Part shown: positions 8,959 to 28,992 of the stretch, piece after piece
Layout: each line of letters begins with the position of its first letter
How positions within the stretch are numbered: position 1 is the stretch's first letter
Origin: a virus
Lineage: Duplodnaviria > Heunggongvirae > Uroviricota > Caudoviricetes
Length of the DNA stretch: 64,000 nucleotides
Strand: one strand, 5' to 3'
IMG/VR virus record: IMGVR_UViG_3300044843_000700
Span: 1-64,000 of that record
Notes under the pieces: model-generated
Seen by the model: the letters and a program-made list of their open reading frames with translations, nothing else
What the model was told of the DNA's origin: nothing
The model's database searches: none
Translations under genes and position numbers: made by a program

Positions 8959-9402
8959 TTATTGGTCAAGGGGATATTCGTCCACAGGAAATATTGCAGA
9001 TTCTTCTACATCTGTAGTGTCCTCTCCTTCTTTTCCTGAAGAGTCAAGATAAGTATACTTTACAGTGTACGGCTTCTCTTGAGTTTTGATGAGCTTGGTT
9101 ATCATACAGGTTATTCGACCTTGTTTGATCATACCAGCTTCCGTCATCTTTTCATCGTCTATTCTCCATGTATAGAGACTTGACTTGTTTACGAGTACCT
9201 TTTGCCCGACCTTGAATTTGAATTCATCTTTCAGTCCGCTGAAGGACTTGTACAGTTGTGAGAGACCCACTTCTGTCACCGACAAGTTGTCGACGATTAC
9301 TTGGGATATCAAGTCGGAGTGTTCAGAACCCAGCATCTTTTTTAGCTGGGTTCTGATTTGCTCCTTGTGAATCTTTACCTGTATGTAGTCTTTATTGCTC
9401 AC
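8959..9402 (-). CDS. hypothetical protein
   Basis: 147-aa ORF. Confidence 0.4.
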   Translation of the reverse strand: MSNKDYIQVKIHKEQIRTQLKKMLGSEHSDLISQVIVDNLSVTEVGLSQLYKSFSGLKDEFKFKVGQKVLVNKSSLYTWRIDDEKMTEAGMIKQGRITCMITKLIKTQEKPYTVKYTYLDSSGKEGEDTTDVEESAIFPVDEYPLDQ

Positions 9403-9802
9403 GTATAGGTATTTTACGGGTGTCCGTTCGTTCCAGCTTTAGCTTGCTAGCCCTCTGATCATATTTCAATGTAGCTGAGCTATTGCTAGCAAAGTCTACA
9501 TCAAACATGAATTCACCGGGTATTGCCTCAGGGACATATAAGTACTTAACCTTTCCGTCCTTTGAGGTAAACTTCAACACATAGCTTAGTGATGCTTCTA
9601 GTTTCACATTGAAGTACCTGTGACTTTTTACAGTCTCGGTTAGCTCCAGTGTGCTGTCTGAGTAAAGCAAGAACACTTCGCATTTAATGTTTCTTTCTGC
9701 AAGGTACTCACCGTCCAGAGTGAGAGATTTGACTGCAGTGGGTTCGTTAGCTACTGTAATCATACAGACTAACGAGAGCATGAGTGTAAACAGAGTTTTC
9801 AT
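9392..9802 (-). CDS. secreted protein (signal peptide)
   Basis: MKTLFTLMLSLVCMITVANE signal-like N-terminus; last gene of vWA-AAA-SPFH operon. Confidence 0.45.
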   Translation of the reverse strand: MKTLFTLMLSLVCMITVANEPTAVKSLTLDGEYLAERNIKCEVFLLYSDSTLELTETVKSHRYFNVKLEASLSYVLKFTSKDGKVKYLYVPEAIPGEFMFDVDFASNSSATLKYDQRASKLKLERTDTRKIPIREQ

Positions 9803-9848
9803 TTTGAGTTGATATTATCGGTCTTGTCATAGGCCGGACCGTTAGCCC

Positions 9849-10832
9849 TTACTTAACGTTGATCATAGGGGTACTATTCCCTAATACTGTTGTCGGTAGT
9901 TTTCCGTCCCAGGTTTGTGCTTTGATGTACTCTACATATAGAGCATTAAGCTCTTTCTGTTTGAGTCGCATGGCTTCGGCTACACCTCGGGCTTCGATAA
10001 TGTCTGCTTCTGCTTTACCGGATGCACGAATAACTGCTTGGGCTGAGTCACCTCTTGCTTCGGCAATCATCTTCTTAGCATTTGCTTCAGCAACCAGAGC
10101 TTCTTGCATTTTTGCTTGCGCTTGTTGTACAGCTTGAGTCTTCGCGTTAATAGCATCCTTCAATGCATCAGGCGGAACAATGTTTGTCCTAAGCTGACTT
10201 ACGATAAACCATTTCGATACACGCTTATTACACTCGGTTATGATAGCAGATTCAAACTCTTCTCGTTTGTTGAAGATATCATCTACCGTCCACCGGTTAG
10301 CTACATCGTTAACGGATCCAACAATCGCTGTCATCAACCATCCCTTTTCGATTCCTTTGATGTCCAATCGTAGTTCAGAGAACATATCTCCTACTGCATC
10401 GGCCTTCAATGAATAGTTAAAGGTCGGCTTAATGGTAGCTTGGAATCCACCTTTGGTTATCACAATCTGGTTATCGTATTCAATGTGTTGCTGAAAGGTA
10501 GGGAACTCATACAAGTTCTCCGTCCAGCTGTTGTATACAACCCATCCTGTTTTGTATGTGTAGTCGGATACACCGCGTTCATTACCGGTTAATTTTACCT
10601 TTATACCGATGTGTCCAGCATCTACCCTTTCAAGGGAATAAGGCTGAATCATTCCGGTCAGGAGTCCTACTACAACAATGGCGATCGGAGTAAACAACCA
10701 CTTTGGATTGAAAGGTCGGGTAACATCGCCGTAACGATCTTTTTGTTCCGGTCCGAACGCATTACTTCGTGTGGATACAAGCCATCCGGCAGCCACAACG
10801 ATTGAGAGCAGGATAATAATCAATGAGATCAT
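9849..10832 (-). CDS. SPFH/band-7 (stomatin/prohibitin/HflKC-like) membrane protein
   Basis: N-terminal TM helix then SPFH core and Ala/Glu-rich coiled coil AQAKMQEALVAEANAKKMIAEARGDSAQAVIRASGKAEADIIEARGVAEA. Confidence 0.6.
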   Translation of the reverse strand: MISLIIILLSIVVAAGWLVSTRSNAFGPEQKDRYGDVTRPFNPKWLFTPIAIVVVGLLTGMIQPYSLERVDAGHIGIKVKLTGNERGVSDYTYKTGWVVYNSWTENLYEFPTFQQHIEYDNQIVITKGGFQATIKPTFNYSLKADAVGDMFSELRLDIKGIEKGWLMTAIVGSVNDVANRWTVDDIFNKREEFESAIITECNKRVSKWFIVSQLRTNIVPPDALKDAINAKTQAVQQAQAKMQEALVAEANAKKMIAEARGDSAQAVIRASGKAEADIIEARGVAEAMRLKQKELNALYVEYIKAQTWDGKLPTTVLGNSTPMINVK

Positions 10833-10836
10833 GTGC

Positions 10837-11079
10837 TTAGATTTTGAGGATTTTGATTAATAACTTTACCGCGTATACCATTGCCAGCACATCTACCAAT
10901 AGAATAACTATGGTAGCAACTGTGGACAGGAACAATGGCATCTCCCTACTTACGCAGTATTCAAAGTAGAGCCCGTTCAGAACGATAACAATGATCGCTC
11001 CTACGAGAAATAAGAACACGTTTTTCATAGTGTAAAAAAGAGTATGGGCTAGCCTAATTGCCAGCCCATCCTCTTGCAA
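10837..11079 (-). CDS. small two-TM membrane protein (NfeD-like partner position)
   Basis: 80 aa, two hydrophobic helices; 4 nt upstream of SPFH gene as in nfeD-spfh operons. Confidence 0.4.
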   Translation of the reverse strand: MQEDGLAIRLAHTLFYTMKNVFLFLVGAIIVIVLNGLYFEYCVSREMPLFLSTVATIVILLVDVLAMVYAVKLLIKILKI

Positions 11080-11081
11080 TA

Positions 11082-12626
11082 TTAATTGGCTTTGACAGCC
11101 GCTCCATTCTTAGAAGCTGCTTCAGAAACATTCATGCTGGCGTTCTTAACCGTGATGGTCATGTCACCAGTACGTGGTTCTTCCACTTCTTCTTTCATCA
11201 GTTTCAAGTGATGCTTCATGGAATCAACTGCTGCTTTTACCAGGTCATCATTTACTGCGCCACGCTTCTTGCAGAGTTTAACTGCACGCTTAGCAATTTC
11301 AGCAACAACTGCACCAGGACAATCCGGAGTACGATCAGCAAGCACGTTGTAATCCAACACCTTTTCTGCATCCAATGGAGCCAGATAACGATGGTAGATT
11401 TCTGCAACGGCAACTTTGTCCGGGTTCTCAAAGTTCACCACAAGGTCAATACGACCTGGGCGGCGAAGAGCCGGGTTGATACGCTTCTCATGGTTGGTTG
11501 TAAAGATTACAGTAAGGTTGTTACCCTTAGTTTGTACACCATCCAGAGTATTCAGGATTTTGTTCATGTCAGCATCACGCTTGGTACCTGCACCGATTTC
11601 ATCCACGTCCTCAAGGAACACGATGCACGGCTGGTAATTCTTAGCTTGGCCAAGAAGCATGTGGAATACATCTGCATCTTTGCAGTAGAAGTACGCCATA
11701 CCTTTTGTAAGACCGGCTGAACCAATACGCATAGCTGTTTCTGTTTTACCGTTTCCATAACCACCTGAGAAAAGATAGCAACGCTTGCCATCTTCACCAA
11801 GATCGTCAATGATGAAGTTGCGAACAACAGTGTCCACGTCTTCATTCAATACAATCTTGTCGGATACCTTCATCTCGAAGATATCGAAATCCAAAGAGAT
11901 CTCACCCCATGGTGATGTCTGCTTTGTAACGGTGATTGCACGTCCGCGATAGATCGATTCGGTATCCAGGATCTTCTGGATCAGATCGAAAAATTCTTTT
12001 GCCTCATGAGCATAGCGCTTCTTCACAGTTGCGCTGATGTGGCTCGGTCCTACTTCGACCACTGCATCTTCCCAAACAGTTGCAGTGAACTGTCCGTAGA
12101 AACAGGTCTCAGTAATCTTCTTGCCGTCTTTGATGTCAACGACAATCTCAATGTCTGTAGGGCGCTGAGTACCGAAGAAGGTGTGCACAGTCTTACCTTG
12201 GATCCAACCAAAGTGACGTTCTGCAGCTTTCTTTACTGCAACAAGGACATCTCGCCAGTTCCATTCACCGAACATTCTGTCCACATTAATCACCTGTTCT
12301 TCGTCATCCCACTGACGCTTCAATTCCTTTGCTGCCTGCAACTTATTCATTGTGGCTGGAAGAATGATACGCTTAGTTCCAGTAGAGAACTCAGTCTCTG
12401 CTTGGTTCTTCTTGATTTCTTCCTCCATCATTTTGATGATGGCCTCATCGGCTGCTTTTTCACCGATAGTTGCAGCAAGCAGCGCGTGCGCTGGGTGCTT
12501 TCGCACTTGTTCAATTTTCATGCTTAGATTTTTAGATGGTTTTTCGAGGAACGAGACTTCCTTCAGAGCTTTGAGTTGTTCCTCTTTACTCAAAGATGAA
12601 AAACAAGAGAGCTGTGGTGAAGTCAC
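11082..12626 (-). CDS. AAA+ ATPase (classic clade) with about 280-aa N-terminal extension
   Basis: Walker A GGYGNGKTETA, Walker B CIVFLEDVDE, sensor-1 FTTN, second region of homology INPALRRPGRIDLVVNF. Confidence 0.8.
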   Translation of the reverse strand: MTSPQLSCFSSLSKEEQLKALKEVSFLEKPSKNLSMKIEQVRKHPAHALLAATIGEKAADEAIIKMMEEEIKKNQAETEFSTGTKRIILPATMNKLQAAKELKRQWDDEEQVINVDRMFGEWNWRDVLVAVKKAAERHFGWIQGKTVHTFFGTQRPTDIEIVVDIKDGKKITETCFYGQFTATVWEDAVVEVGPSHISATVKKRYAHEAKEFFDLIQKILDTESIYRGRAITVTKQTSPWGEISLDFDIFEMKVSDKIVLNEDVDTVVRNFIIDDLGEDGKRCYLFSGGYGNGKTETAMRIGSAGLTKGMAYFYCKDADVFHMLLGQAKNYQPCIVFLEDVDEIGAGTKRDADMNKILNTLDGVQTKGNNLTVIFTTNHEKRINPALRRPGRIDLVVNFENPDKVAVAEIYHRYLAPLDAEKVLDYNVLADRTPDCPGAVVAEIAKRAVKLCKKRGAVNDDLVKAAVDSMKHHLKLMKEEVEEPRTGDMTITVKNASMNVSEAASKNGAAVKAN

Positions 12627-12684
12627 AGCTCTCTCGCAATATCATGATATCCCTTCTGTTGCCAAGCGGGATAATACTCCGATC

Positions 12685-14082
12685 TTATTCAGTTACCTGG
12701 ATGAGTCTGTATCGATCAGTATTCACTGTATCCATCATCAGTTGTTCAGGAGAGTAGATCTCGCCTTTCAATACTGACTTCAAGATAGAGGGACTGAATC
12801 CGGATACAAGACCGATTCCTTTATCGCTCTTCTGTGCAGGAGAGTTGCCGATACGACCGTTTACATTCCAGAAGATGATTTCCGGCATCTTGTAACCAGC
12901 TGCCTGGTACTTCTGACGGATTACATCCAGGTTTGTACCTGATGCGCGGTATCTACAAGCTGAATCAAACTCCATATCAGAGATGATCAAGATCTTGGTA
13001 GGCATTTCGTCCTCAGAGATCTTCTCTCTGATTGCACTGTTGAGGATTAAGTCAAAGGTCGACTGCAGATTTGTGGTACCACCCCATGGAGCTTGATTCA
13101 ACTGACGCATCCTTTGAGCAAGTGACCCTTTCAGGTATTGCATCTCAGGTTTTTCAGAGAAAGTCAAGAAGGCATCTTTGAAGATACCTTTGTTACGCTC
13201 AGAGATATAAATCCCCAGTGCTACACTTACATCCATAGGCAATCCCATCATACTTCCAGATACATCACACACCGGAATGATGCGTTCTGTTGATCCTTCC
13301 ATATAATCTGGTAGGTTATTCCACTGTGCTTCGACTGCACGCTCATTCTCCCCATTATTAATTGCTTGATACAATTGATGAGGGAATAATACTGATGCGT
13401 TGATCTTAGCTTCACCTGAATGTACAGCCTCAATATACGCTTTCATACGTTCTTCATCGTGTTTGAAAAATGCCTTGCGGTATTTATTCATCGCGATAGA
13501 AGGTACTGCTTCGTACTTGATACCTTTCCATTCTCGGTTACACATCTGCGTTTCCACTACCTTAGTCATAGCCACTAGCTTCTTACGAAACTCCTTAGGT
13601 GTCATACCAAGATAACGATGCATGGCTACAAACCATGGACCTTTGCGCGGGAACCATTTGGCCAAGAGATTCGCATTAGAGGATTCCTCAAGAGAATGCT
13701 TCAACCAGTTAAGGTTATTCTCGTTTGGCTTCTCTATCGCGAACACATCCTTCCAATACCCAAACTCTGGTACATGTACCATTAGTTTGTCTGCGACCTC
13801 AGGATATTTATCCACAATGTGTCGCATGATTGTATGAAAGAATCGGCGCTCACCTGCACCACCACGGGCATCACGAGACCAGAATAAAATCTTGGCTGCG
13901 ATATCTGCATCTTGAGCATATGCTCTTTCGAAGATGGTGATGATAGACTTCTCGTCCATATTACGAGATGCTCCTGCAAGGAAGAACATATCGAGACAGA
14001 AGTTCAAGGAGGTCGAGTGAGTAACTGCTCCTTTATTTGTTGTAGCGTCATAGCTACGTGCTGCATTAACAAGTCTGCTCAT
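12685..14082 (-). CDS. von Willebrand factor A (MIDAS) domain protein, DUF2828/Ro60-like
   Basis: DVSGSM MIDAS motif followed by conserved T and D (ILIISDMEFD); helical N-terminal half; architecture resembles Ro60/Rsr (helical TROVE-like plus vWA). Confidence 0.55.
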   Translation of the reverse strand: MSRLVNAARSYDATTNKGAVTHSTSLNFCLDMFFLAGASRNMDEKSIITIFERAYAQDADIAAKILFWSRDARGGAGERRFFHTIMRHIVDKYPEVADKLMVHVPEFGYWKDVFAIEKPNENNLNWLKHSLEESSNANLLAKWFPRKGPWFVAMHRYLGMTPKEFRKKLVAMTKVVETQMCNREWKGIKYEAVPSIAMNKYRKAFFKHDEERMKAYIEAVHSGEAKINASVLFPHQLYQAINNGENERAVEAQWNNLPDYMEGSTERIIPVCDVSGSMMGLPMDVSVALGIYISERNKGIFKDAFLTFSEKPEMQYLKGSLAQRMRQLNQAPWGGTTNLQSTFDLILNSAIREKISEDEMPTKILIISDMEFDSACRYRASGTNLDVIRQKYQAAGYKMPEIIFWNVNGRIGNSPAQKSDKGIGLVSGFSPSILKSVLKGEIYSPEQLMMDTVNTDRYRLIQVTE

Positions 14083-14672
14083 TACGGCTTAGGTTTAATG
14101 GTTGTTACTTGAAGATTGAGGGAGAACCCACCACCTTTTCACGGGCGGTGGGGTTGACTACATAACAGGATACGGTACCCACCTTAGCTACTTGAGCAAA
14201 GGGTTCTCCCAGGTTTGCCCTTTCGGGCTCTCTGATTTTTAGTTTTCAGAGTGCTGATGTATCCATTATAGTCAATAGGTGCAGGATGCCACTAAGCCAT
14301 ATTTCAAATGGGTTTTTAGTGCTGCAAGCATCCTTTAAAAGGGGCGGACTCCACCGGGTTTGCTTAAAAGGCAAGTGGTTTGTATGTGCTGTTCGGAGTC
14401 CTTAAGAAGAGGCTGAGAGTGCCGAGTGAAGTACGAAACCTCACCCGACTTTTTCTCCCAGCAATTTCTCCTGGTTTAGACTTGACCACCTTGTGGTTGT
14501 TGTCACGGATCCAGGTATCCGGCAGCCTTCGCTCGAATGGCGTCTAGGCGGCTAAACTTCGTGCATTGCCGACACATAGTGTTTCGTCTTAATTTTCAAA
14601 GACTCATCAGGGCAACTTTAAGAATAGGGCCGGCCATCACTCCGGCCCTTTCTCAGCGAATGTTGATTTCAA

Positions 14673-15017
14673 TTATCCCTTACGTCCACCCAAGATAGCC
14701 TGAATAAAACGTGGAGGTTGGTGATCACGCTGCAGATTAGCTGTTATGTGTGATACATAGAACAACTCATTTGCATGGACGCACTCTTTACTTACGATAG
14801 CAAGCACTTCAACAATGTTTTCCGACTTGTGAAATACTTCGTGTGTAAGTTTGTGTAGGTGTTCAGCTCTCTCCGGAGAGATAGCTAAACTCTCAGTAAG
14901 ACTTCCGGTTTCTCTTTCGATCTCGATGACAATGAGACTACCTTTGTCTTGAGGTTCTACCTTAATGTATCTGGGACGCTTGAAGAGCGATTCCCAGAAT
15001 TTCTTGATCTTTTTCAT
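14673..15017 (-). CDS. hypothetical protein
   Basis: Track ORF 14673..15104 trimmed to internal ATG (MKKIKKFWESLF...) to avoid overlap with upstream gene. Confidence 0.35.
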   Translation of the reverse strand: MKKIKKFWESLFKRPRYIKVEPQDKGSLIVIEIERETGSLTESLAISPERAEHLHKLTHEVFHKSENIVEVLAIVSKECVHANELFYVSHITANLQRDHQPPRFIQAILGGRKG

Positions 15018-15036
15018 AGGCTTAGGTTCTGCGAAT

Positions 15037-15453
15037 TTACGCAACTTTTTTGAGACGACAATGATTAAGTGTGGTGTACGGTCGGTTGTTGAGAAAGTCT
15101 TCAACGCTTTTATCTTCTATGATCAAAGGCATTCTATGATGGAATGGTACAACTATACCTTGAGCGGGAGCTGTTATTACAGCGAACTCTGGAACATTGT
15201 TGTATAGTACTCCGATATAGAGATTGCTTTGATCATCTCGGATAAATTGCGCGTCCTTCTCCCAGAAAGAATCCACTGATAGGACACCTCTGTTAGCACT
15301 GATCTTCTTCCATACTGTGGGTATAGATTCAGATCTTACATTATACTGGGATCCATCGTTGAATCCCCAGATGCCGCTGGCTTTACCAAGCCTGGTCAGA
15401 AAGGCATGAATCTGACCCGGTGACATCTTACTGCCTTTTAATTTCACACACAT
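15037..15453 (-). CDS. compact SRAP (SOS-response-associated peptidase, YedK/HMCES-like) domain protein
   Basis: Starts M-C (Cys2 nucleophile position), YNV, FWEK, and ITAPAQGIVVPFHHRMPLII matching SRAP HxRMP[VL]I block; 138 aa is shorter than typical 200-230. Confidence 0.5.
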   Translation of the reverse strand: MCVKLKGSKMSPGQIHAFLTRLGKASGIWGFNDGSQYNVRSESIPTVWKKISANRGVLSVDSFWEKDAQFIRDDQSNLYIGVLYNNVPEFAVITAPAQGIVVPFHHRMPLIIEDKSVEDFLNNRPYTTLNHCRLKKVA

Positions 15454-15854: not shown

Positions 15855-16379
15855 TTAGTTTTCATCATCGAATACAAGAGGCTCTTCCTTTTCCTCTTCT
15901 TCTTCCGGAAAGTTCAGGTCAACATCATCCAAGCTTTTCTCTTGCTTGTCTTCACCTCTGAGCTTGGCTTCCATCTGCTCAATCATCGCATTCATCTTTT
16001 CCTCGTAGATTTTTCCTACTTGTTTAAGGAAGGTTACCTCAGCTCCGATAACGTAGTTGCCATAAGCAAGCTCGTTAGGATGAACGCATATTTCGCTTAC
16101 GTCTACCATAGCTTTATGAATATTTTTATGCTTAAGGAGACTCTTCATAGCGAGTATTCGTATCTCTAAACTTCTTTCTTCCGGAATACCCAGAGCATCG
16201 TTTAGATTATCTGCACTCGGGTTGATTTCTTCTACAGGATATTCTCCTTCGTCCCATATAGGGTCTAATTCTTGCATGATGACAGTTTTGATTGTTAGTA
16301 AAAAGGACAGCGCCGGCATAACCATCACCATAATAGTTAGCCGGCGCGCCCAATAATTTAGAATGGTAGATCTTGCCAT
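15855..16379 (-). CDS. membrane protein with acidic C-terminus
   Basis: N-terminal TM (LTIMVMVMPALSFLL), C-terminal EEEEKEEPLVFDDEN. Confidence 0.4.
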   Translation of the reverse strand: MARSTILNYWARRLTIMVMVMPALSFLLTIKTVIMQELDPIWDEGEYPVEEINPSADNLNDALGIPEERSLEIRILAMKSLLKHKNIHKAMVDVSEICVHPNELAYGNYVIGAEVTFLKQVGKIYEEKMNAMIEQMEAKLRGEDKQEKSLDDVDLNFPEEEEEKEEPLVFDDEN

Positions 16380-26314: not shown

Positions 26315-26387
26315 GGAGCTATAGCAAAGACGGTCTATGCGTGGGACTGAAAATCCTGAGATCCTGGTTCGATACCAGGTGGCTCCA
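26315..26387 (+). tRNA. tRNA-Phe (GAA)
   Basis: Cloverleaf by hand: acceptor GGAGCTA/TGGCTCC, anticodon loop CTGAAAA, T-arm CCTGG-TTCGATA-CCAGG. Confidence 0.8.
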
Positions 26388-26393
26388 CTGATT

Positions 26394-26477
26394 GGGAACT
26401 GATAGTCGTTTTGGATACGGCAGCCGGACTGTAAATTCGGTCTCTTCGGGGGAGTGGTTCGAGTCCACCAGGTCCCA
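26394..26477 (+). tRNA. tRNA-Tyr (GTA), type II
   Basis: Anticodon arm CCGGA-CTGTAAA-TTCGG, long variable arm, T-loop TTCGAGT, discriminator A; acceptor has one A.G mismatch, D-arm irregular. Confidence 0.5.
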
Positions 26478-26483
26478 CAACAT

Positions 26484-26577
26484 GGAAAGTGAAGCAGTGG
26501 CATTGGAGCCGCGACCGGTCTTGAAAACCGGGTGTCGGGTGATAAACTTGACTGGGGGTCGGGTCCTCCGCTTTCCG
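26484..26577 (+). tRNA. tRNA-Ser (TGA), type II, CCA encoded
   Basis: Acceptor GGAAAGT/GCTTTCC, anticodon arm CCGGT-CTTGAAA-ACCGG, discriminator G then CCA; layout parallels E. coli Ser-TGA. Confidence 0.6.
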
Positions 26578-26581
26578 CCAT

Positions 26582-26654
26582 ACATGAGTAGCTCAGTCGG
26601 TAGAGCTCTGGTCTCCAAAACCAGTGGTCGGAGGTTCGAACCCTTCCTCATGTG
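26582..26654 (+). tRNA. tRNA-Trp (CCA)
   Basis: Perfect acceptor ACATGAG/CTCATGT, D-stem GCTC/GAGC, anticodon arm CTGGT-CTCCAAA-ACCAG, T-loop TTCGAAC. Confidence 0.8.
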
Positions 26655-26736
26655 CAAAATGTTTCCCTCATTAATGAGGGAAACAAAGTATAACTATCTG
26701 AGCGTTATTTTACTTTAACGCCTGAAAGTAAAATAA

Positions 26737-26809
26737 GGTACCGTGGATGAGCGGTTTAGTCCTCAGTCTGCAAAACTCGAGTACGCGTGTTCGAATCACG
26801 CCGGTACCT
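26737..26809 (+). tRNA. tRNA-Cys (GCA)
   Basis: Perfect acceptor GGTACCG/CGGTACC, T-arm GCGTG-TTCGAAT-CACGC, anticodon loop CTGCAAA; one C.C mismatch in anticodon stem. Confidence 0.6.
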
Positions 26810-26814
26810 CTTCC

Positions 26815-26898
26815 GGAAAGTAAACCTACCTGGGTAGGAGCAGCCTGCTAAGCTGTCTGGTCGCAGTAGCGACTGTGGATCAGGGCCACTGCTTTCCG
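26815..26898 (+). tRNA. tRNA-Ser (GCT), type II
   Basis: Same acceptor as Ser-TGA (GGAAAGT/GCTTTCC, disc G), anticodon arm GCAGC-CTGCTAA-GCTGT, variable hairpin GTCGC-agta-GCGAC; atypical T-loop. Confidence 0.5.
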
Positions 26899-26906
26899 CA
26901 ACATAT

Positions 26907-26985
26907 GCCCTCTTGGCGAAATTTGGTAGACGCGCTAGACTTAGGATCTAGTCTTCGGGTGAGAGTTCGAGTCTCTCAGAGGGTA
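26907..26985 (+). tRNA. tRNA-Leu (TAG), CCA encoded, 9-nt variable arm
   Basis: Acceptor GCCCTCT/AGAGGGT, anticodon arm CTAGA-CTTAGGA-TCTAG, T-arm GAGAG-TTCGAGT-CTCTC, disc A, CCA follows. Confidence 0.75.
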
Positions 26986-27063
26986 CCATGTGTTACTTTT
27001 ATGTAACACGTTTAACACATTGATGAGATACAAAATTGGTTGTGTCTCACCGATGAGTTATAA

Positions 27064-27138
27064 ACTCCAGTGGCGAAACTGGTAAACGCAACAGACTTAA
27101 GATCTGTACCGCTGCCGGTTCGAGTCCGGCCTGGAGTA
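27064..27138 (+). tRNA. tRNA-Leu (TAA) with class-I-like 6-nt variable loop
   Basis: Perfect acceptor ACTCCAG/CTGGAGT, D-stem GCGA/ACGC, anticodon arm ACAGA-CTTAAGA-TCTGT, T-arm GCCGG-TTCGAGT-CCGGC, disc A. Confidence 0.6.
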
Positions 27139-27342
27139 CAACATGTATAGAAAATCGAAAAAAGTTTGCATGTAGTGTTGCACATGTAAACTTTCTTTGT
27201 ATATTTGTAGCGCAAATGAGAAATATACAACATACGGCCCAGATGAATATTGTGCGCAAAGGCGATGAACCGTCTTGCCCGCAGGCTTGTTTTGTTGTAT
27301 CGATCATGTAATAGTTCATAACTGTCGAATACAAATAGGAGA

Positions 27343-27370
27343 AGCCTCGGGATAACACCGGGGCTTTTTC
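27343..27370 (+). terminator. terminator-like hairpin preceding second tRNA sub-cluster
   Basis: agcctcgg-gataaca-ccggggct then TTTTT; tRNA-Pro starts about 10 nt later. Confidence 0.4.
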
Positions 27371-27380
27371 ATTTTAACCC

Positions 27381-27453
27381 CGGGATGTAGTTCAGTTGGT
27401 AGAACGCGTGCTTTGGGAGCATGAGGTCGTAGGTTCGAGTCCTGCTATCCCGA
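27381..27453 (+). tRNA. tRNA-Pro (TGG)
   Basis: Acceptor CGGGATG/TATCCCG, D-stem GTTC/GAAC, anticodon arm CGTGC-TTTGGGA-GCATG, T-loop TTCGAGT. Confidence 0.8.
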
Positions 27454-27503
27454 CTAACAGATACGGAATTGGCCGCCACAAACTGTAAAGAAAAGGGTCA
27501 CTA

Positions 27504-27578
27504 GGGGTGCGGAGCTCGGTCCGGTCGAGCAGCTGCTTTGCAAGCAGAAGGTCGTGGGTTCAAATCCCACCCATTCCA
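27504..27578 (+). tRNA. tRNA-Ala (TGC)
   Basis: Anticodon loop TTTGCAA, variable AGGTC, T-arm GTGGG-TTCAAAT-CCCAC; acceptor GGGGTGC/CCATTCC gives G3.U70 (Ala identity) but C7.C66 mismatch and one extra nt before D-stem. Confidence 0.5.
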
Positions 27579-27691
27579 CAAGTTGAAACAACTCCTGTAG
27601 TCCAGAAGCGGGAGGATGAGGAACGGTTAAAGGCCGTGTGCTATGCTGGGCGTAGTGTAAGTTCTGAAAAAGCCTCATCAGTGTTGATACT

Positions 27692-27765
27692 GCGAGTGTA
27701 GCTCAATTGGCTAGAGTACCTGCCTTCCAAGCAGGAAGTTGTGAGTTCGAGCCTCACCACTCGCT
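27692..27765 (+). tRNA. tRNA-Gly (TCC)
   Basis: Perfect acceptor GCGAGTG/CACTCGC, anticodon arm CCTGC-CTTCCAA-GCAGG, T-arm GTGAG-TTCGAGC-CTCAC. Confidence 0.85.
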
Positions 27766-27770
27766 CTAAT

Positions 27771-27847
27771 GGTCTATGGGTCTGCTTGGTTGTGGACGCC
27801 TCCCTGTCACGGAGGATATCAGGTCGGTTCGACTCCGACATAGACCG
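27771..27847 (+). tRNA. tRNA-Asp (GTC)
   Basis: Acceptor GGTCTAT/ATAGACC, anticodon arm CCTCC-CTGTCAC-GGAGG, T-arm GTCGG-TTCGACT-CCGAC. Confidence 0.8.
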
Positions 27848-27851
27848 CAAT

Positions 27852-27924
27852 GGACTGTGAGCTCGGTTGGCTGAGCGGCACCCTGTTAAGGTGAGGGTCA
27901 TAGGTTCGATTCCTATACAGTCCG
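27852..27924 (+). tRNA. tRNA-Asn (GTT)
   Basis: Acceptor GGACTGT/ACAGTCC, anticodon loop CTGTTAA, T-arm ATAGG-TTCGATT-CCTAT; G27.A43 mismatch. Confidence 0.8.
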
Positions 27925-27931
27925 CAAACAT

Positions 27932-28003
27932 TGACATGTAGCTCAGAGGTAGAGCATCCGCCTGATACGCGGGAGGTCGTAGGTTCAATCCCTGCCATGT
28001 CAA
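27932..28003 (+). tRNA. tRNA-Ile (GAT)
   Basis: Acceptor TGACATG/CATGTCA, anticodon arm TCCGC-CTGATAC-GCGGG, T-loop TTCAATC. Confidence 0.8.
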
Positions 28004-28010
28004 CTAAAAT

Positions 28011-28085
28011 AGGAGTATAGCTCAGTTGGTTCAGAGCACTTGCCTTACAAGCAAGATGTCCATGGTTCGAATCCATGTACTCCTA
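28011..28085 (+). tRNA. tRNA-Val (TAC), CCA encoded
   Basis: Acceptor AGGAGTA/TACTCCT, anticodon arm CTTGC-CTTACAA-GCAAG, T-arm CATGG-TTCGAAT-CCATG, then A-CCA. Confidence 0.85.
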
Positions 28086-28164
28086 CCACGAAGATTATGT
28101 ACAACTTGTTTAAGATACGTAGGAAGAAGAAAAGCAGATCTAAGAGATCAGCATGATAATCTAT

Positions 28165-28237
28165 TCCCTCGTAGCAAACCGGTTGTAGGCAGCAGACTTT
28201 TAATCTGCGGGGCTGGGTTCGACTCCCAGCGGGGGAA
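28165..28237 (+). tRNA. tRNA-Lys (TTT)
   Basis: Acceptor TCCCTCG/CGGGGGA, anticodon arm GCAGA-CTTTTAA-TCTGC, T-arm CTGGG-TTCGACT-CCCAG. Confidence 0.8.
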
Positions 28238-28245
28238 CTGTAAGC

Positions 28246-28317
28246 GCCCCTGTAGCTCAATGGAAGAGCAAGAGACTTCTAAGCTCAAGGTTACCAGTTC
28301 GAGTCTGGTCAGGGGTT
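28246..28317 (+). tRNA. tRNA-Arg (TCT), CCA encoded
   Basis: Acceptor GCCCCTG/CAGGGGT, D-stem GCTC/GAGC, anticodon loop CTTCTAA with weak 3-bp stem, T-arm ACCAG-TTCGAGT-CTGGT. Confidence 0.6.
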
Positions 28318-28326
28318 CCAAGTAAT

Positions 28327-28400
28327 AGGCCCTTAGCTCAGCTGGTCAGAGCAGTACTCTTATAAGGTAAAGGTCACTGGTTCAAACCCGGTAGGGCCTA
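28327..28400 (+). tRNA. tRNA-Ile (TAT), AUA-decoding
   Basis: Perfect acceptor AGGCCCT/AGGGCCT disc A, D-stem GCTC/GAGC, anticodon loop CTTATAA (TAT), T-arm ACTGG-TTCAAAC-CCGGT; G27.A43 mismatch. Confidence 0.65.
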
Positions 28401-28408
28401 CAAAATAT

Positions 28409-28482
28409 AGCGGGGTGGACTGGAGTGGTTCCAGCTCGGTCTCATAAGCCGAACGACGTGGGTTCGAATCCCTCTCCCGCTA
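28409..28482 (+). tRNA. tRNA-Met (CAT) (elongator or Ile2-lysidine type not resolved)
   Basis: Acceptor AGCGGGG/TCCCGCT disc A, D-stem CTGG/CCAG, anticodon arm TCGGT-CTCATAA-GCCGA, T-loop TTCGAAT with one T.T in T-stem. Confidence 0.6.
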
Positions 28483-28547
28483 CAAATGAGTGGTAATGAC
28501 GCCTGACAAAGGAGGGATATAGTACCAGGTTACCTCGCACTCATTAT

Positions 28548-28620
28548 GTCCCGGTCATCTAGTGGTCCAGGATACTTCCCTTTCACGGAAGTCACACGGG
28601 TTCAAATCCCGTCCGGGATA
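28548..28620 (+). tRNA. tRNA-Glu (TTC)
   Basis: Acceptor GTCCCGG/CCGGGAT, anticodon arm CTTCC-CTTTCAC-GGAAG, T-arm ACGGG-TTCAAAT-CCCGT; Glu-type D-arm. Confidence 0.85.
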
Positions 28621-28628
28621 CAATATTA

Positions 28629-28702
28629 GCCCGAGTAGCTCAGCAGGTTAGAGCTACTGTTTTGTAAACAGAGGGTCGGCGGTTCGATTCCGTCCTCGGG
28701 CT
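28629..28702 (+). tRNA. tRNA-Thr (TGT)
   Basis: Perfect acceptor GCCCGAG/CTCGGGC, anticodon loop TTTGTAA, T-arm GGCGG-TTCGATT-CCGTC; A27.A43 mismatch. Confidence 0.8.
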
Positions 28703-28704
28703 CT

Positions 28705-28777
28705 GTGGCCGTAGTTCAAATGGTGGAACGTCTGCTTGTGGCGCAGAAGGTTGCGGGTTCAAGTCTCGCCGGTCACC
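28705..28777 (+). tRNA. tRNA-His (GTG), CCA encoded
   Basis: Acceptor GTGGCCG/CGGTCAC disc C then CCA, anticodon arm TCTGC-TTGTGGC-GCAGA, T-arm GCGGG-TTCAAGT-CTCGC; starts 2 nt after tRNA-Thr. Confidence 0.8.
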
Positions 28778-28784
28778 CCAATTA

Positions 28785-28856
28785 GGCCCCGTGGCGCAGC
28801 GGAAGCGCTTCTGAATACGGATCAGATGGTCGGGAGTTCGAATCTCTCCGGGGTCT
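28785..28856 (+). tRNA. tRNA-Arg (ACG)
   Basis: Acceptor GGCCCCG/CGGGGTC, D-stem GCGC/GCGC, anticodon arm TCTGA-ATACGGA-TCAGA, T-arm GGGAG-TTCGAAT-CTCTC. Confidence 0.85.
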
Positions 28857-28865
28857 CTAAAATAA

Positions 28866-28936
28866 TGCCCGGTCGTCTAGCGGCAGGACATCTGGTTTTG
28901 GACCAGAGAACGGACGTTCGAATCGTTCCCGGGCAA
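28866..28936 (+). tRNA. tRNA-Gln (TTG)
   Basis: Acceptor TGCCCGG/CCGGGCA, anticodon arm TCTGG-TTTTGGA-CCAGA, T-arm GGACG-TTCGAAT-CGTTC. Confidence 0.8.
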
Positions 28937-28992
28937 CAAAAATTTGGCGAAGTGATGATAATTGCGTATATTAAGATAAACACAGTTATCAC

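What the first reader, a model, noticed from the sequence alone, without database searches (positions are those of the whole stretch)
9392..14672. Co-linear phage operon: vWA(MIDAS)/Ro60-like protein, classic AAA+ ATPase, small 2-TM protein, SPFH/band-7 protein, secreted protein, under a 560-bp untranslated leader
Five minus-strand genes have gaps of only 2-58 nt, which suggests they are co-transcribed. The pairing of a vWA-MIDAS protein (DVSGSM...T...D) with an AAA+ ATPase recalls MoxR-vWA, CbbQ-CbbO and NorQ-NorD chaperone pairs. Here, however, the ATPase carries the classic-clade second region of homology (RRPGRID) rather than a MoxR signature, and it has a 280-aa N-terminal extension. The helical-N plus vWA-C layout of the 465-aa protein also resembles Ro60/Rsr (TROVE plus vWA), which binds structured ncRNAs. 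An NfeD-like 2-TM protein plus SPFH pair normally scaffolds membrane AAA proteases such as FtsH through HflKC. Such a combination in a phage genome points to a membrane-associated ATP-driven remodelling or RNP module; the Ro60 and membrane-scaffold readings are inference, and I cannot point to a described system with this exact composition.
Basis: partly seen in the sequence, partly recalled or inferred. Interest (0 to 1): 0.75.

Follow-up and report, generated by a model that had tools for sequence, protein, structure and literature searches.

The report
Ribozyme-headed RNA with Ro60-like gene
The supposed 560-bp "leader" in this uncultured phage holds a self-cleaving hammerhead ribozyme followed by a large, conserved folded RNA found only in front of a Ro60-like RNA-binding protein gene, so the real unit is probably an RNA-protein pair and not the proposed five-gene membrane machine.

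Summary

The five-gene module reading fails. In relatives, DUF2828, AAA, TM+SPFH and the secreted protein appear and disappear independently. Terminator-like hairpins follow DUF2828 and AAA. The tight gaps depend on unlikely GTG/TTG starts.

The leader (14083-14672) is the interesting part. It holds a type I hammerhead ribozyme (14616-14565, intact core, predicted cut 14571|14570) and about 490 nt of modular structured RNA. The 3' pseudoknotted domain (14264-14120) recurs in 24 distinct phage contigs: 98% of pair cells are paired and 23 of 29 pairs show compensatory changes. In an unbiased scan it lay only upstream of DUF2828. It matches no Rfam family. In relatives a pistol ribozyme replaces the hammerhead.

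Best reading (inferred, confidence about 0.5): a ribozyme-released, Y-RNA-like partner RNA for a phage Ro60-like protein. The main rival is a cis-regulatory leader.

The parts
14627..14648 (-). G+C-rich hairpin (GGGCCGG-AGUGAU-GGCCGGCCC) just after the stop of the upstream 143-aa gene and 10 nt before the hammerhead. After ribozyme cleavage it would be the 3'-terminal hairpin of the upstream mRNA (inferred).
   Evidence: Sequence read; MFE fold; coordinates.
14565..14616 (-). Type I hammerhead ribozyme: stem I GUUGCC/GGCAAU, core CUGAUGA, stem II GUCUU/AAGAC, GAAA, stem III ACAC/GUGU, cleavage triplet GUC. The predicted cut lies between 14571 and 14570 and leaves a 5'-OH on the downstream RNA.
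   Evidence: Rfam Hammerhead_1 scores 26.7 bits, E 4.6e-4, below the gathering score of 34. The MFE fold gives the three-way junction. In window, L002, L029 and crAss-like phage cr272_1, stem I keeps 6 of 6 pairs with four different sequences, and stem III also varies.
14474..14557 (-). 5' domain of the RNA: a four-way junction made of an outer stem GUUUAG/CUAAAC and three hairpins. One hairpin carries the conserved CCAUUCGNGCGAA motif.
   Evidence: The motif is found in window, L001, L002, L023, L029 and L035/36, in most of them directly after a recognisable self-cleaving ribozyme (hammerhead or pistol; L023 only resembles a pistol). RNAalifold on 6 sequences predicts 24 pairs, 9 with compensatory changes. 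The sample is small.
14412..14462 (-). Long hairpin (GCUGGGAG...CUCUCAGC) linking the 5' domain to the repeated units.
   Evidence: MFE fold. L023 keeps the GCUGAGAG/CUCUCAGC stem around a different interior.
14346..14401 (-). Repeat unit U1: stem GGACUCC/GGAGUCC enclosing GAA-CAGCAC, an A-rich stretch and a small inner hairpin.
   Evidence: Read. Similar units (stem, 2-3 nt, CAGCA(C), A-rich loop) occur 3-4 times per locus in L023, L035, L037 and group-2 loci. Unit covariation was not formally tested.
14284..14333 (-). Repeat unit U2: stem GGAUGC/GCAUCC enclosing UUG-CAGCAC and an inner hairpin.
   Evidence: Alignment A1 shows GGAUGC/GCAUCC in this group against GGUUGC/GCAACC in group-2 loci.
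14120..14264 (-). Conserved pseudoknotted 3' domain (elaborated unit U3). Pa is GGAUAC 14264-14259 with GUAUCC 14173-14168. Pd is GGGAGAA 14210-14204 with UUCUCCC 14126-14120 and crosses Pa. Pe is a hairpin at 14202-14182. Pf is CCCACCGCC/GGUGGUGGG at 14152-14127 and stacks on Pd. A possible alternative pairing joins GGUGGG (about 14182-14177) to the Pf 5' strand.
   Evidence: Covariance model R1, built from 12 other loci, hits the window at 59 bits, E 6.5e-9, and 21 loci in all. Of 29 pairs, 98.1% of cells are paired and 23 pairs have double changes; 0 of 500 shuffles reach this, and slid controls give about 50% paired. Pa was not in the model, is 100% paired and has 3 covarying pairs. The alternative helix is 83% paired. 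No Rfam match at E<=10.
14083..14119 (-). A-rich spacer between the RNA domain and the AUG, with a conserved AGUAAC..AUUAAA and no terminator. The RNA is therefore contiguous with the DUF2828 mRNA.
   Evidence: Alignments A1 and A4. No terminator-like site was reported here.
12685..14082 (-). Ro60-fold protein of 465 aa: a helical DUF2828 (TROVE-like) ring plus a DUF7788 vWA domain with MIDAS D273-x-S275-x-S277...T337...D369.
12592..12637 (-). Terminator-like hairpin (14-bp stem plus UUUUUCAUCUUU) downstream of DUF2828. This is the probable end of the RNA+DUF2828 unit.
11082..12521 (-). Neighbouring, independently assorting cassette: a soluble Bcs1-like classical AAA ATPase (479 aa from the probable ATG). 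Walker A is GGYGNGKT, Walker B is FLEDVDE and the second region of homology is RRPGRID.
   Evidence: Homologues are about 480 aa. PDB sequence hits. AF2 pLDDT 84. The top 8 Foldseek hits are Bcs1. Variable neighbourhood.
11034..11069 (-). Second terminator-like hairpin plus U-run, between AAA and the small TM gene.
10837..11028 (-). Small 2-TM protein (63 aa from the probable ATG) that always directly precedes the SPFH gene.
   Evidence: tblastn finds it directly upstream of SPFH in L001, L023, L037 and L043. No Pfam, PHROG or NCBIfam hit.
9849..10832 (-). Membrane-anchored SPFH/Band-7 protein (327 aa). It forms a cassette with the small TM protein.
   Evidence: Pfam Band_7 1.3e-18. PHROG 200, E 3.9e-51. 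Weak HflK match.
9392..9802 (-). 136-aa protein with an N-terminal signal-like hydrophobic segment. It is present with or without SPFH in relatives (L035 has it without SPFH).
   Evidence: No family hit.

Best explanation
The functional unit is the 'leader' plus the DUF2828 gene (14648-12592), not the five genes.

1. Transcription reads in from the upstream gene.
2. The type I hammerhead cuts itself between 14571 and 14570. This separates the upstream mRNA, which ends in a hairpin and a 2',3'-cyclic phosphate, from an RNA of about 490 nt that begins with a 5'-OH.
3. That RNA is built of a four-way-junction domain, a long hairpin, two CAGCA hairpin units and a pseudoknotted 3' domain. It runs straight into the ORF of a Ro60-fold protein.
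4. I propose that this RNA is the dedicated RNA partner of the Ro60-like protein. That would make it a functional analogue of Y RNAs such as YrlA/YrlB in the rsr operon or Yrl1/Yrl2 upstream of phiLo Ro60. It would bind the ring or vWA surface and gate or tether the protein to host RNA-processing enzymes or to tRNA-like substrates during infection.

Shown:
- the Ro60 fold and the MIDAS motif;
- the ribozyme motif with covariation;
- the conserved, covarying RNA structure;
- the exclusive linkage of this RNA to DUF2828 genes;
- replacement of the hammerhead by pistol at the same position in relatives.

Inferred:
- that cleavage occurs in vivo;
- that protein and RNA bind each other;
- any downstream function.

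The AAA, TM+SPFH and secreted-protein genes are separate accessory cassettes in a hypervariable slot.
For: - Hammerhead: the full core is present, the MFE fold gives the three-way junction, and stems I and III covary across window, L002, L029 and cr272_1.
- Ribozyme swapping: a pistol ribozyme above Rfam's gathering score sits at the same position in L035/36, next to a hammerhead remnant, and at the head of the L015 noncoding region. This implies selection for cleavage at that site whatever the motif.
- 3' domain: found in 21 loci by covariance model, with 98.1% of cells paired, 23 of 29 pairs compensatory, and controls far lower.
- Specificity: a protein-blind pattern scan of IMG/VR gave 12 model-positive hits, and all 12 have DUF2828 80-275 nt downstream. 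The other 68 pattern matches (24 from an unrelated coding gene, 44 others) are not the RNA.
- Absence where the gene is absent: the RNA is missing from L043, a related phage that lacks DUF2828 but keeps AAA-TM-SPFH.
- Distance to the AUG varies (37 nt in the window, about 85 in L037, 238-275 in L115 and L065, about 870 in L023). That argues against a simple translational operator.
- Precedent: Y-like RNAs are encoded upstream of, or within, Ro60 operons and are bound by the protein (PMC12135203; PMC4201824).
- DUF2828 genes elsewhere sit beside tRNA arrays, and L023's leader holds tRNA-like elements.
Against: - No binding or expression data exist.
- The RNA shows no match to Rfam Y RNA or other families. 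No recognisable Ro-binding bulged helix or T/D-arm mimic was found in the window.
- No terminator separates the RNA from the ORF, so it is at least also a 5' UTR.
- Known ribozymes were detected in only about 6 of about 24 loci (4 hammerhead, 2 distinct pistol). None reached gathering score in 13 further loci.
- Cultured phages with DUF2828 (KVP40, Felixounavirus, MiniLon) lack this RNA domain, so the protein family does not need this particular RNA.
- The hammerhead scores below Rfam's gathering threshold.
- The covariation alignment was fitted to the model for three of the four helices.
Confidence: 0.5

Rival explanations
1. The structured RNA is purely a cis-acting 5' leader of the DUF2828 mRNA. 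It could be a riboswitch-like or conformational switch, or a stability element, that sets translation or decay of the message. The ribozyme would only give the mRNA a defined, decay-resistant 5'-OH end. The protein would not use the RNA as a partner.
For: - The RNA is contiguous with the ORF, with no terminator, and usually ends about 37-90 nt before the AUG.
- A covarying alternative pairing exists: the GGUGGG segment against the Pf 5' strand, 83% paired. This is typical of switching leaders.
- Strict linkage to one gene family is also what a leader would show.
Against: - About 490 nt with repeated modules, a four-way junction and, in L023, tRNA-like inserts is far larger than needed for a leader.
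- The 3' domain can sit 240-870 nt from the AUG.
- No element visibly sequesters the start region.
- No match to any riboswitch family.
Confidence: 0.3
2. The leader is a generic phage RNA island of processing signals and decoy or tRNA-like RNAs. It happens to lie next to DUF2828, acts independently of it (for example as a decoy for host tRNA-targeting nucleases), and the ribozyme simply dices a polycistronic transcript.
For: - Hammerheads with the same stem II occur in crAss-like phages away from any DUF2828 gene.
- Phage hammerheads often flank arbitrary genes (PMC3088659).
- Relatives carry extra unassigned RNA elements and tRNA-like sequences in the same region.
Against: - The conserved 3' domain was never found without DUF2828 directly downstream (12 of 12 in the blind scan, 21 of 21 in protein-seeded loci).
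- It is absent where DUF2828 is absent.
Confidence: 0.1
3. One reading: vWA/Ro60-like protein, AAA ATPase, 2-TM protein, SPFH and secreted protein form one co-transcribed, membrane-associated ATP-driven remodelling machine.
For: - The same order DUF2828-AAA-TM-SPFH-secreted protein occurs in the window, in L001 and, with two extra genes, in L037.
- AAA directly follows DUF2828 in L035/36.
- AAA+TM+SPFH recur together in L043.
Against: - Every pairwise combination also occurs without the other partners.
- Terminator-like hairpins follow DUF2828 and AAA.
- The ATPase is Bcs1-like and classical clade, not MoxR.
- The 2-TM protein has no NfeD OB domain.
- No PADLOC system matches.
Confidence: 0.05

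Closest known systems
Ro60 (Rsr)-Y RNA ribonucleoproteins, including Salmonella rsr-yrlBA-rtcBA, D. radiodurans Rsr/Yrn1 and Thermus phage phiLo phiRo60 with Yrl1/Yrl2
   Same: A ring-shaped helical-repeat domain is capped by a vWA domain with MIDAS. Structured noncoding RNA is encoded on the same strand immediately upstream of the protein gene and is probably co-transcribed (PMC12135203, PMC4201824). The system is carried by a phage. There is a link to tRNA-like RNAs in relatives.
   Different: The protein belongs to Pfam DUF2828/DUF7788, not TROVE PF05731, and shares only 11-16% identity with solved Ro60s. The RNA is about 490 nt and modular, with CAGCA units and a pseudoknot. It has no match to Y RNA models and no recognisable Ro-binding helix or T/D arms in the window. 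Its 5' end is made by a self-cleaving ribozyme. No RtcB or PNPase gene lies nearby.
Bacterial and phage hammerhead, twister and pistol ribozymes sharing gene contexts (the basis of the 'RAGATH' discovery strategy)
   Same: A canonical type I hammerhead core is present. Pistol occupies the same genomic slot in relatives, which is the interchangeability reported for these classes (PMC6765202). The context is an intergenic region of a phage (PMC3088659).
   Different: Here the downstream product is a specific conserved structured RNA tied to one protein family, which offers a concrete function for the cut. Whether DUF2828 is on the published list of associated genes could not be checked, because the paper is not held.
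SPFH-NfeD operons and FtsH-HflKC
   Same: An SPFH/Band-7 protein with an N-terminal membrane anchor is always preceded by a small membrane protein. A classical AAA ATPase is nearby in some genomes.
   Different: The small protein has 63 aa, two TM segments and no NfeD OB-fold domain. The ATPase has no protease domain or TM segment and is Bcs1-like. AAA and SPFH also occur apart.
Bcs1 (mitochondrial AAA translocase of folded Rieske protein)
   Same: The fold match covers both the N-terminal Bcs1-specific-like domain and the AAA module. The Walker B reads L-E-D-x-D, as I recall it in Bcs1 (my own knowledge).
   Different: There is no N-terminal transmembrane anchor. The gene is phage-encoded. 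Identity is only 15-18%. The substrate is unknown.
MoxR-vWA, NorQ-NorD and CbbQ-CbbO chaperone pairs
   Same: An AAA+ gene lies next to a vWA-MIDAS gene.
   Different: The ATPase clade is wrong (classical, not MoxR). The adjacency is not conserved. The vWA domain is part of a Ro60-type ring, not a NorD- or CbbO-type adaptor.

Membership tests
Ro60/TROVE (Rsr) proteins | Helical-repeat ring followed by a vWA domain, as a full-length fold | tested here: met
Ro60/TROVE (Rsr) proteins | MIDAS motif DxSxS...T...D in the vWA domain | tested here: met
   D273, S275, S277, T337 and D369 are invariant in 21 sequences down to 30% identity.
Ro60/TROVE (Rsr) proteins | Sequence membership in Pfam TROVE, or detectable sequence similarity to solved Ro60 | tested here: not met
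   Pfam gives only DUF2828 and DUF7788 at E<=0.01. A profile search of PDB sequences finds no Ro60.
Ro60/TROVE (Rsr) proteins | Binds Y RNA or misfolded RNA | not testable with these tools
   Needs EMSA or RIP. Only annotation-level labels exist: 'Ro-like RNA binding protein' and PHROG 850 'RNA-binding protein'.
Y RNA / YrlA-like RNAs | Encoded within a few kb of the Ro60-type gene on the same strand | tested here: met
   The RNA domain lies 37-870 nt upstream on the same strand in all 21+3 loci.
Y RNA / YrlA-like RNAs | Similarity to curated Y RNA models | tested here: not met
   No Y RNA-type hit in 13900-14900 at E<=10. I did not verify which Y RNA families Rfam 15 holds.
Y RNA / YrlA-like RNAs | tRNA-like module (T and D arms), or a terminal stem with a Ro-binding bulged helix | tested here: inconclusive
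   No tRNA hit in the window leader. There is only a cloverleaf-like four-way junction with a UUCGA-containing loop. L023's leader has two tRNA-like elements.
Hammerhead ribozyme (type I) | Catalytic core CUGANGA...GAAA...NUH with A15.1-U16.1 | tested here: met
   CUGAUGA / GAAA / GUC read. The same core is in L002, L029 and cr272_1.
Hammerhead ribozyme (type I) | Three helices supported by covariation | tested here: met
   Stem I keeps 6 of 6 pairs with four different sequences, and stems II and III vary compensatorily. The MFE fold gives the junction. Only 4 sequences were compared.
Hammerhead ribozyme (type I) | Rfam gathering score | tested here: not met
   26.7 bits against 34.
Hammerhead ribozyme (type I) | Self-cleavage | not testable with these tools
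   Needs in vitro transcription of about 14660-14540.
MoxR-vWA type chaperone pair | ATPase of the MoxR clade | tested here: not met
   The best matches are Cdc48 D2, FtsH, Rpt and Bcs1.
MoxR-vWA type chaperone pair | Conserved adjacency of the ATPase and vWA genes | tested here: not met
   Adjacent in 5 loci. DUF2828 has no AAA in more than 25 loci, and AAA has no DUF2828 in L038-40 and L042-44.
SPFH-NfeD pair | SPFH/Band-7 domain | tested here: met
   PF01145, E 1.3e-18.
SPFH-NfeD pair | Partner with an NfeD C-terminal OB-fold domain | tested here: not met
   The 63/80-aa protein has no Pfam, PHROG or NCBIfam hit and is too short.
SPFH-NfeD pair | Conserved adjacency of the membrane partner and SPFH | tested here: met
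   The TM ORF is directly upstream of SPFH in window, L001, L023, L037 and L043.
Bcs1-like AAA | Bcs1-specific N-domain plus a single classical AAA module | tested here: met
   Foldseek's top 8 hits are Bcs1, E 1e-14, with 410-448 aligned columns.
Bcs1-like AAA | N-terminal transmembrane anchor | tested here: not met
   The N-terminus is amphipathic helices with no hydrophobic segment (sequence; model).

The most novel reading that the evidence does not exclude
Self-cleaving ribozymes in phages exist, at least in this context, to manufacture the defined 5'-OH end of a new class of large Y-like RNA. That RNA would be loaded onto Ro60-fold (DUF2828) proteins. If so, the long-unexplained shared gene context of hammerhead, pistol and twister ribozymes would be an RNP-biogenesis step, and the DUF2828-RNA particle would act on tRNA-like substrates during infection, for example as counter-defence against tRNA-targeting nucleases.
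Probability: 0.15. Interest if true: 0.85.

Novelty: new variant of a known kind. Interest (0 to 1): 0.7.

Why it matters
- DUF2828 'Ro-like' proteins are common in phages but have no known ligand or function. They occur in 711 cultured phage records, including KVP40, Felix O1-like, P100 and Twort-like phages and mycobacteriophages, and in thousands of metagenomic clusters.
- A conserved, covarying RNA strictly linked to the gene gives a concrete candidate ligand that can be tested by EMSA or RIP.
- The locus is also a clean natural experiment for an open question stated in the ribozyme literature: why unrelated self-cleaving ribozyme classes share gene contexts (PMC6765202). Here hammerhead and pistol alternate at the same position in front of the same downstream RNA.
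- The 3' domain matches no Rfam family, so it is a candidate new RNA motif.
- The result removes a tempting but unsupported five-gene 'machine' annotation.

Tried and rejected
- Sequence-only search of PDB with a DUF2828 profile gave nothing relevant. Only fold comparison showed Ro60.
- Literature searches for DUF2828, RAGATH+phage and TROVE+ribozyme returned nothing relevant, and a search combining Y RNA/Ro60/Rsr with hammerhead/pistol returned Ro60/Y RNA papers, none of which mentions hammerhead or pistol. The two Breaker-lab papers that list ribozyme-associated genes are not held.
- A sigma70-like site at 14292-14265 was rejected as a promoter. Its TATAAT is not conserved in relatives, and site counts equal the shuffled expectation.
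- A loose script for 'stem-CAGCA-stem' units matched all over the window by chance and was abandoned.
- The IMG/VR pattern scan was dominated by an unrelated coding gene (24 hits of fixed 91-nt span) and by chance matches. These were resolved with the covariance model.
- I compared the extra element seen in relatives with the hatchet architecture and rejected the match, because its conserved nucleotides lie outside P2.
- T-loop and GNCGAA Y-RNA motifs were sought in the 5' domain by eye. I found no convincing match.
- PADLOC defence models gave no significant system.
- No RNA-repair genes (RtcB, ligases, PNPase) were found among the window ORFs scanned with Pfam and PHROGs.

Full report
**1. 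The observation**

The five minus-strand ORFs are present as described.
- Pfam assigns DUF2828 plus DUF7788 to the 465-aa protein, AAA (PF00004) to the 514-aa ORF and Band_7 to the 327-aa ORF. The 80-aa and 136-aa ORFs have no hit.
- PHROGs calls the 465-aa protein family 850, 'RNA-binding protein' (E 1e-142). The ATPase is phrog_10440 (unknown function) and the SPFH protein is phrog_200.
- The window comes from an uncultured tailed phage. It encodes a terminase, a portal and a major head protein and 23 tRNA genes.
- The closest cultured DUF2828 homologues are below 47% identical.

The 'tight gaps' are only partly real.
- AAA homologues are about 480 aa and align from Met36, so the likely start is ATG 12521.
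- The 163 nt after the DUF2828 stop then contain a 14-bp hairpin followed by a U-run (12637-12592).
- The small TM ORF likewise most probably starts at ATG 11028 (63 aa). That leaves a second terminator-like hairpin (11069-11034) after AAA.

**2. The Ro60-like protein**

An AlphaFold2 model built from 30 homologues (pLDDT 81, pTM 0.80) matches full-length Ro60 structures ahead of everything else.
- Foldseek gives E 2e-7 to 3.5e-6 for the phiLo TROVE protein, Xenopus Ro and D. radiodurans Rsr.
- The MIDAS residues are invariant across the family.
- Sequence-only methods see no TROVE similarity.

This is therefore a Ro60-fold family that is distinct at the sequence level. It is widespread: 6910 proteins with E<=0.001 among the candidates scored and 711 cultured phage records, where mycobacteriophage annotators already call it 'Ro-like RNA binding protein'.

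**3. The five-gene module**

tblastn and gene-context look-ups across 44 related loci show that the genes are separate cassettes in a variable slot between homologues of the 143-aa and 147-aa flanking genes.

| Loci | Gene content |
|---|---|
| Window, L001 | DUF2828-AAA-TM-SPFH-secreted protein |
| L037 | The same plus two extra genes |
| L035/36 | DUF2828-AAA-secreted protein, no TM or SPFH |
| L023 | DUF2828-TM-SPFH, no AAA |
| L043 | AAA-TM-SPFH, no DUF2828 |
| L002, L029, L004-6 and most others | DUF2828 alone |
| L038-40, L042, L044 | AAA alone |

Sources. The only invariant pairing is small TM protein plus SPFH.

The ATPase is classical clade by sequence: Cdc48 D2 at 1.6e-24, plus FtsH and proteasomal ATPases. 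Its model (pLDDT 84) matches Bcs1 over both the N-domain and the AAA module, and these are the top 8 Foldseek hits. It lacks a TM anchor. The MoxR-vWA and NfeD analogies therefore fail on defining features, and no PADLOC system matches.

**4. The 'leader'**

The region 14083-14672 folds much better than shuffled controls (z -4.65).

*Hammerhead.*
- An Rfam scan finds a type I hammerhead at 14616-14565 (26.7 bits, E 4.6e-4). This is below the gathering score, but the core is complete: CUGAUGA / GAAA / GUC.
- The minimum-energy fold reproduces the three-way junction.
- Hammerheads with the same core lie at the same place upstream of DUF2828 in L002 and L029, and in L001 where it is interrupted by a homing endonuclease gene. 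One with an identical stem II occurs in crAss-like phages.
- Across four sequences stem I keeps six pairs with four different sequences.
- The predicted cleavage is between 14571 and 14570.

*Pistol in relatives.*
- In L035/L036 a pistol ribozyme above Rfam's gathering score (44.7 bits) sits at this position, next to a leftover hammerhead stem III.
- In L015 a pistol (42.8 bits) heads the long noncoding region.
- No known ribozyme reached gathering score in 13 further loci, so the ribozyme head is frequent but not universal.

*RNA downstream of the cut.* About 490 nt of modular RNA follows.
- A four-way-junction domain carries a conserved CCAUUCGNGCGAA motif.
- A long hairpin follows.
- Two hairpin units of the form stem-NN-CAGCA(C)-A-rich loop follow.
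- A third unit is elaborated into a pseudoknot.

*Conservation of the 3' domain.*
- I built a covariance model of this 3' domain from 12 loci of a different subgroup. It finds the window element at 59 bits (E 6.5e-9) and 21 distinct loci in all, including the 56%-identity protein clade.
- On the resulting alignment 98.1% of 587 pair cells are standard pairs, and 23 of 29 pairs show changes on both sides. None of 500 shuffles reaches these values, and slid controls are about 50% paired.
- Helix Pa closes the pseudoknot and was not part of the model. It is 100% paired with three covarying positions.
- An alternative pairing of a GGUGGG segment with the Pf 5' strand is 83% paired.
- Caveat: three of the four helices were scored on an alignment fitted to the model.
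- No Rfam family matches the domain.

**5. Linkage of the RNA to the gene**

A protein-blind IUPAC pattern scan of IMG/VR returned 80 loci.
- 24 were an unrelated coding gene.
- Of the other 56, exactly 12 matched the covariance model (E<=6e-7).
- All 12 have a DUF2828 ORF 80-275 nt downstream. Three of these contigs are new.

The model finds nothing in L043, which lacks DUF2828, or in KVP40, a Felixounavirus and a mycobacteriophage.

The RNA domain and this clade of DUF2828 genes are therefore strictly linked. The distance to the AUG ranges from 37 nt to about 870 nt in L023, where further RNA elements and two tRNA-like sequences with inserts intervene.

**6. Interpretation**

Known Ro60 systems encode their Y RNAs beside the gene on the same strand.
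- The Salmonella YrlA RNAs, which are tRNA-like, follow this pattern (PMC4201824).
- Thermus phage phiLo Ro60 binds two Y-like RNAs encoded in the noncoding region upstream of its gene (PMC12135203).
- DUF2828 genes in other phages sit next to tRNA arrays.

The most economical reading is that the leader encodes the RNA partner of the Ro60-fold protein, and that its 5' end is made by self-cleavage. That step can be performed by either hammerhead or pistol.

What is shown is the fold, the ribozyme motif, the conserved RNA structure and the linkage. Binding, cleavage in vivo and function are inferred. Because no terminator separates RNA and ORF, a cis-regulatory leader remains a strong rival. The two are not mutually exclusive, since the protein could bind its own leader.

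**7. Novelty**

- The protein family, hammerhead and pistol ribozymes, and the Ro60-Y RNA principle are all known.
- The conserved RNA, its exclusive association with DUF2828 and the ribozyme-headed architecture are not in Rfam or in the searchable literature.
- Reviews state that the reason for the shared gene contexts of self-cleaving ribozymes is undetermined (PMC6765202).
- I class this as a new variant of a known kind and score interest at 0.7.

Noticed in passing
L001 4785-5450, 7108-8068, 9300-10320: The 97%-identical relative carries three mobile insertions that the window lacks. A GIY-YIG endonuclease ORF sits inside hammerhead stem II, and its 3' end supplies a second CUGAUGA box and a stem I strand. 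A group I intron (Rfam 29 bits, E 4e-4) with a LAGLIDADG ORF splits DUF2828 right after MIDAS Asp369. A LAGLIDADG-containing insertion splits the AAA Walker A motif (GNG|KT).
   Followed up: partly
L035 5899-5959 (also L036) and L015 5116-5184: Pistol ribozymes above Rfam's gathering score occupy the head of the DUF2828 leader where the window has a hammerhead. L035 still shows a hammerhead stem III remnant just 5' of the pistol.
   Followed up: partly
L023 4426-4541 and 4788-4908: Two tRNA-like elements (Rfam tRNA 47-49 bits) with inserts of about 45 nt containing the CAGCA/AAAC motif lie inside the DUF2828 leader. ARAGORN does not call them.
   Followed up: no
14 related loci, e.g. L003 about 1000-1110, L014 5545 and 5776, L023 5219 and 5937, L029 5477; absent from the window: A recurrent unassigned RNA element with no Rfam hit. 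It reads UAAUGCACCA, then a hairpin with a UUCCCAAGG loop whose stem covaries, then CAGUUGUAAU, a variable 50-150 nt insert, AUUACAACUG and AGUGCAGAGGGG. It could be another processing element or ribozyme candidate.
   Followed up: partly
L007 7339-7430, L014 7336-7429, L015 7316-7426, L003 2664-2812: Weak alpha_tmRNA (tRNA-like domain) matches, E 5e-5 to 0.03, lie at or just after the 3' end of the DUF2828 gene in group-2 loci.
   Followed up: no
window 26315-28937 (+): An array of 23 tRNA genes covers most amino acids. It lies on the strand opposite to the finding.
   Followed up: no
L041 (crAss-like phage cr272_1) 3001-3058, minus strand; also cr131_1, cr273_1 and cr53_1: A hammerhead with a stem II identical to the window's occurs in crAss-like gut phages, in unannotated intergenic regions and not next to DUF2828.
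   Followed up: partly
L046 (Escherichia phage pinkbiff) 2501-6215; L020; L032: In Felixounavirus the DUF2828 gene lies directly upstream of the tRNA gene array on the same strand. In L020 and L032 it is flanked by tRNA genes.
   Followed up: no
window 15037-15453 (-) and 14673-15104 (-): A 138-aa ORF with a partial SRAP (SOS-response-associated peptidase) match overlaps the start of the 143-aa upstream gene by 68 nt. The 143-aa protein and the 174-aa protein at 15855-16379 look like distant paralogues.
   Followed up: no
window 11082-12521 (-): The AAA ATPase is a soluble Bcs1-like protein with about 294 homologues, all in large phage contigs. It is often, but not always, followed by the TM+SPFH pair. 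That is a possible separate membrane-related cassette worth its own look.
   Followed up: partly
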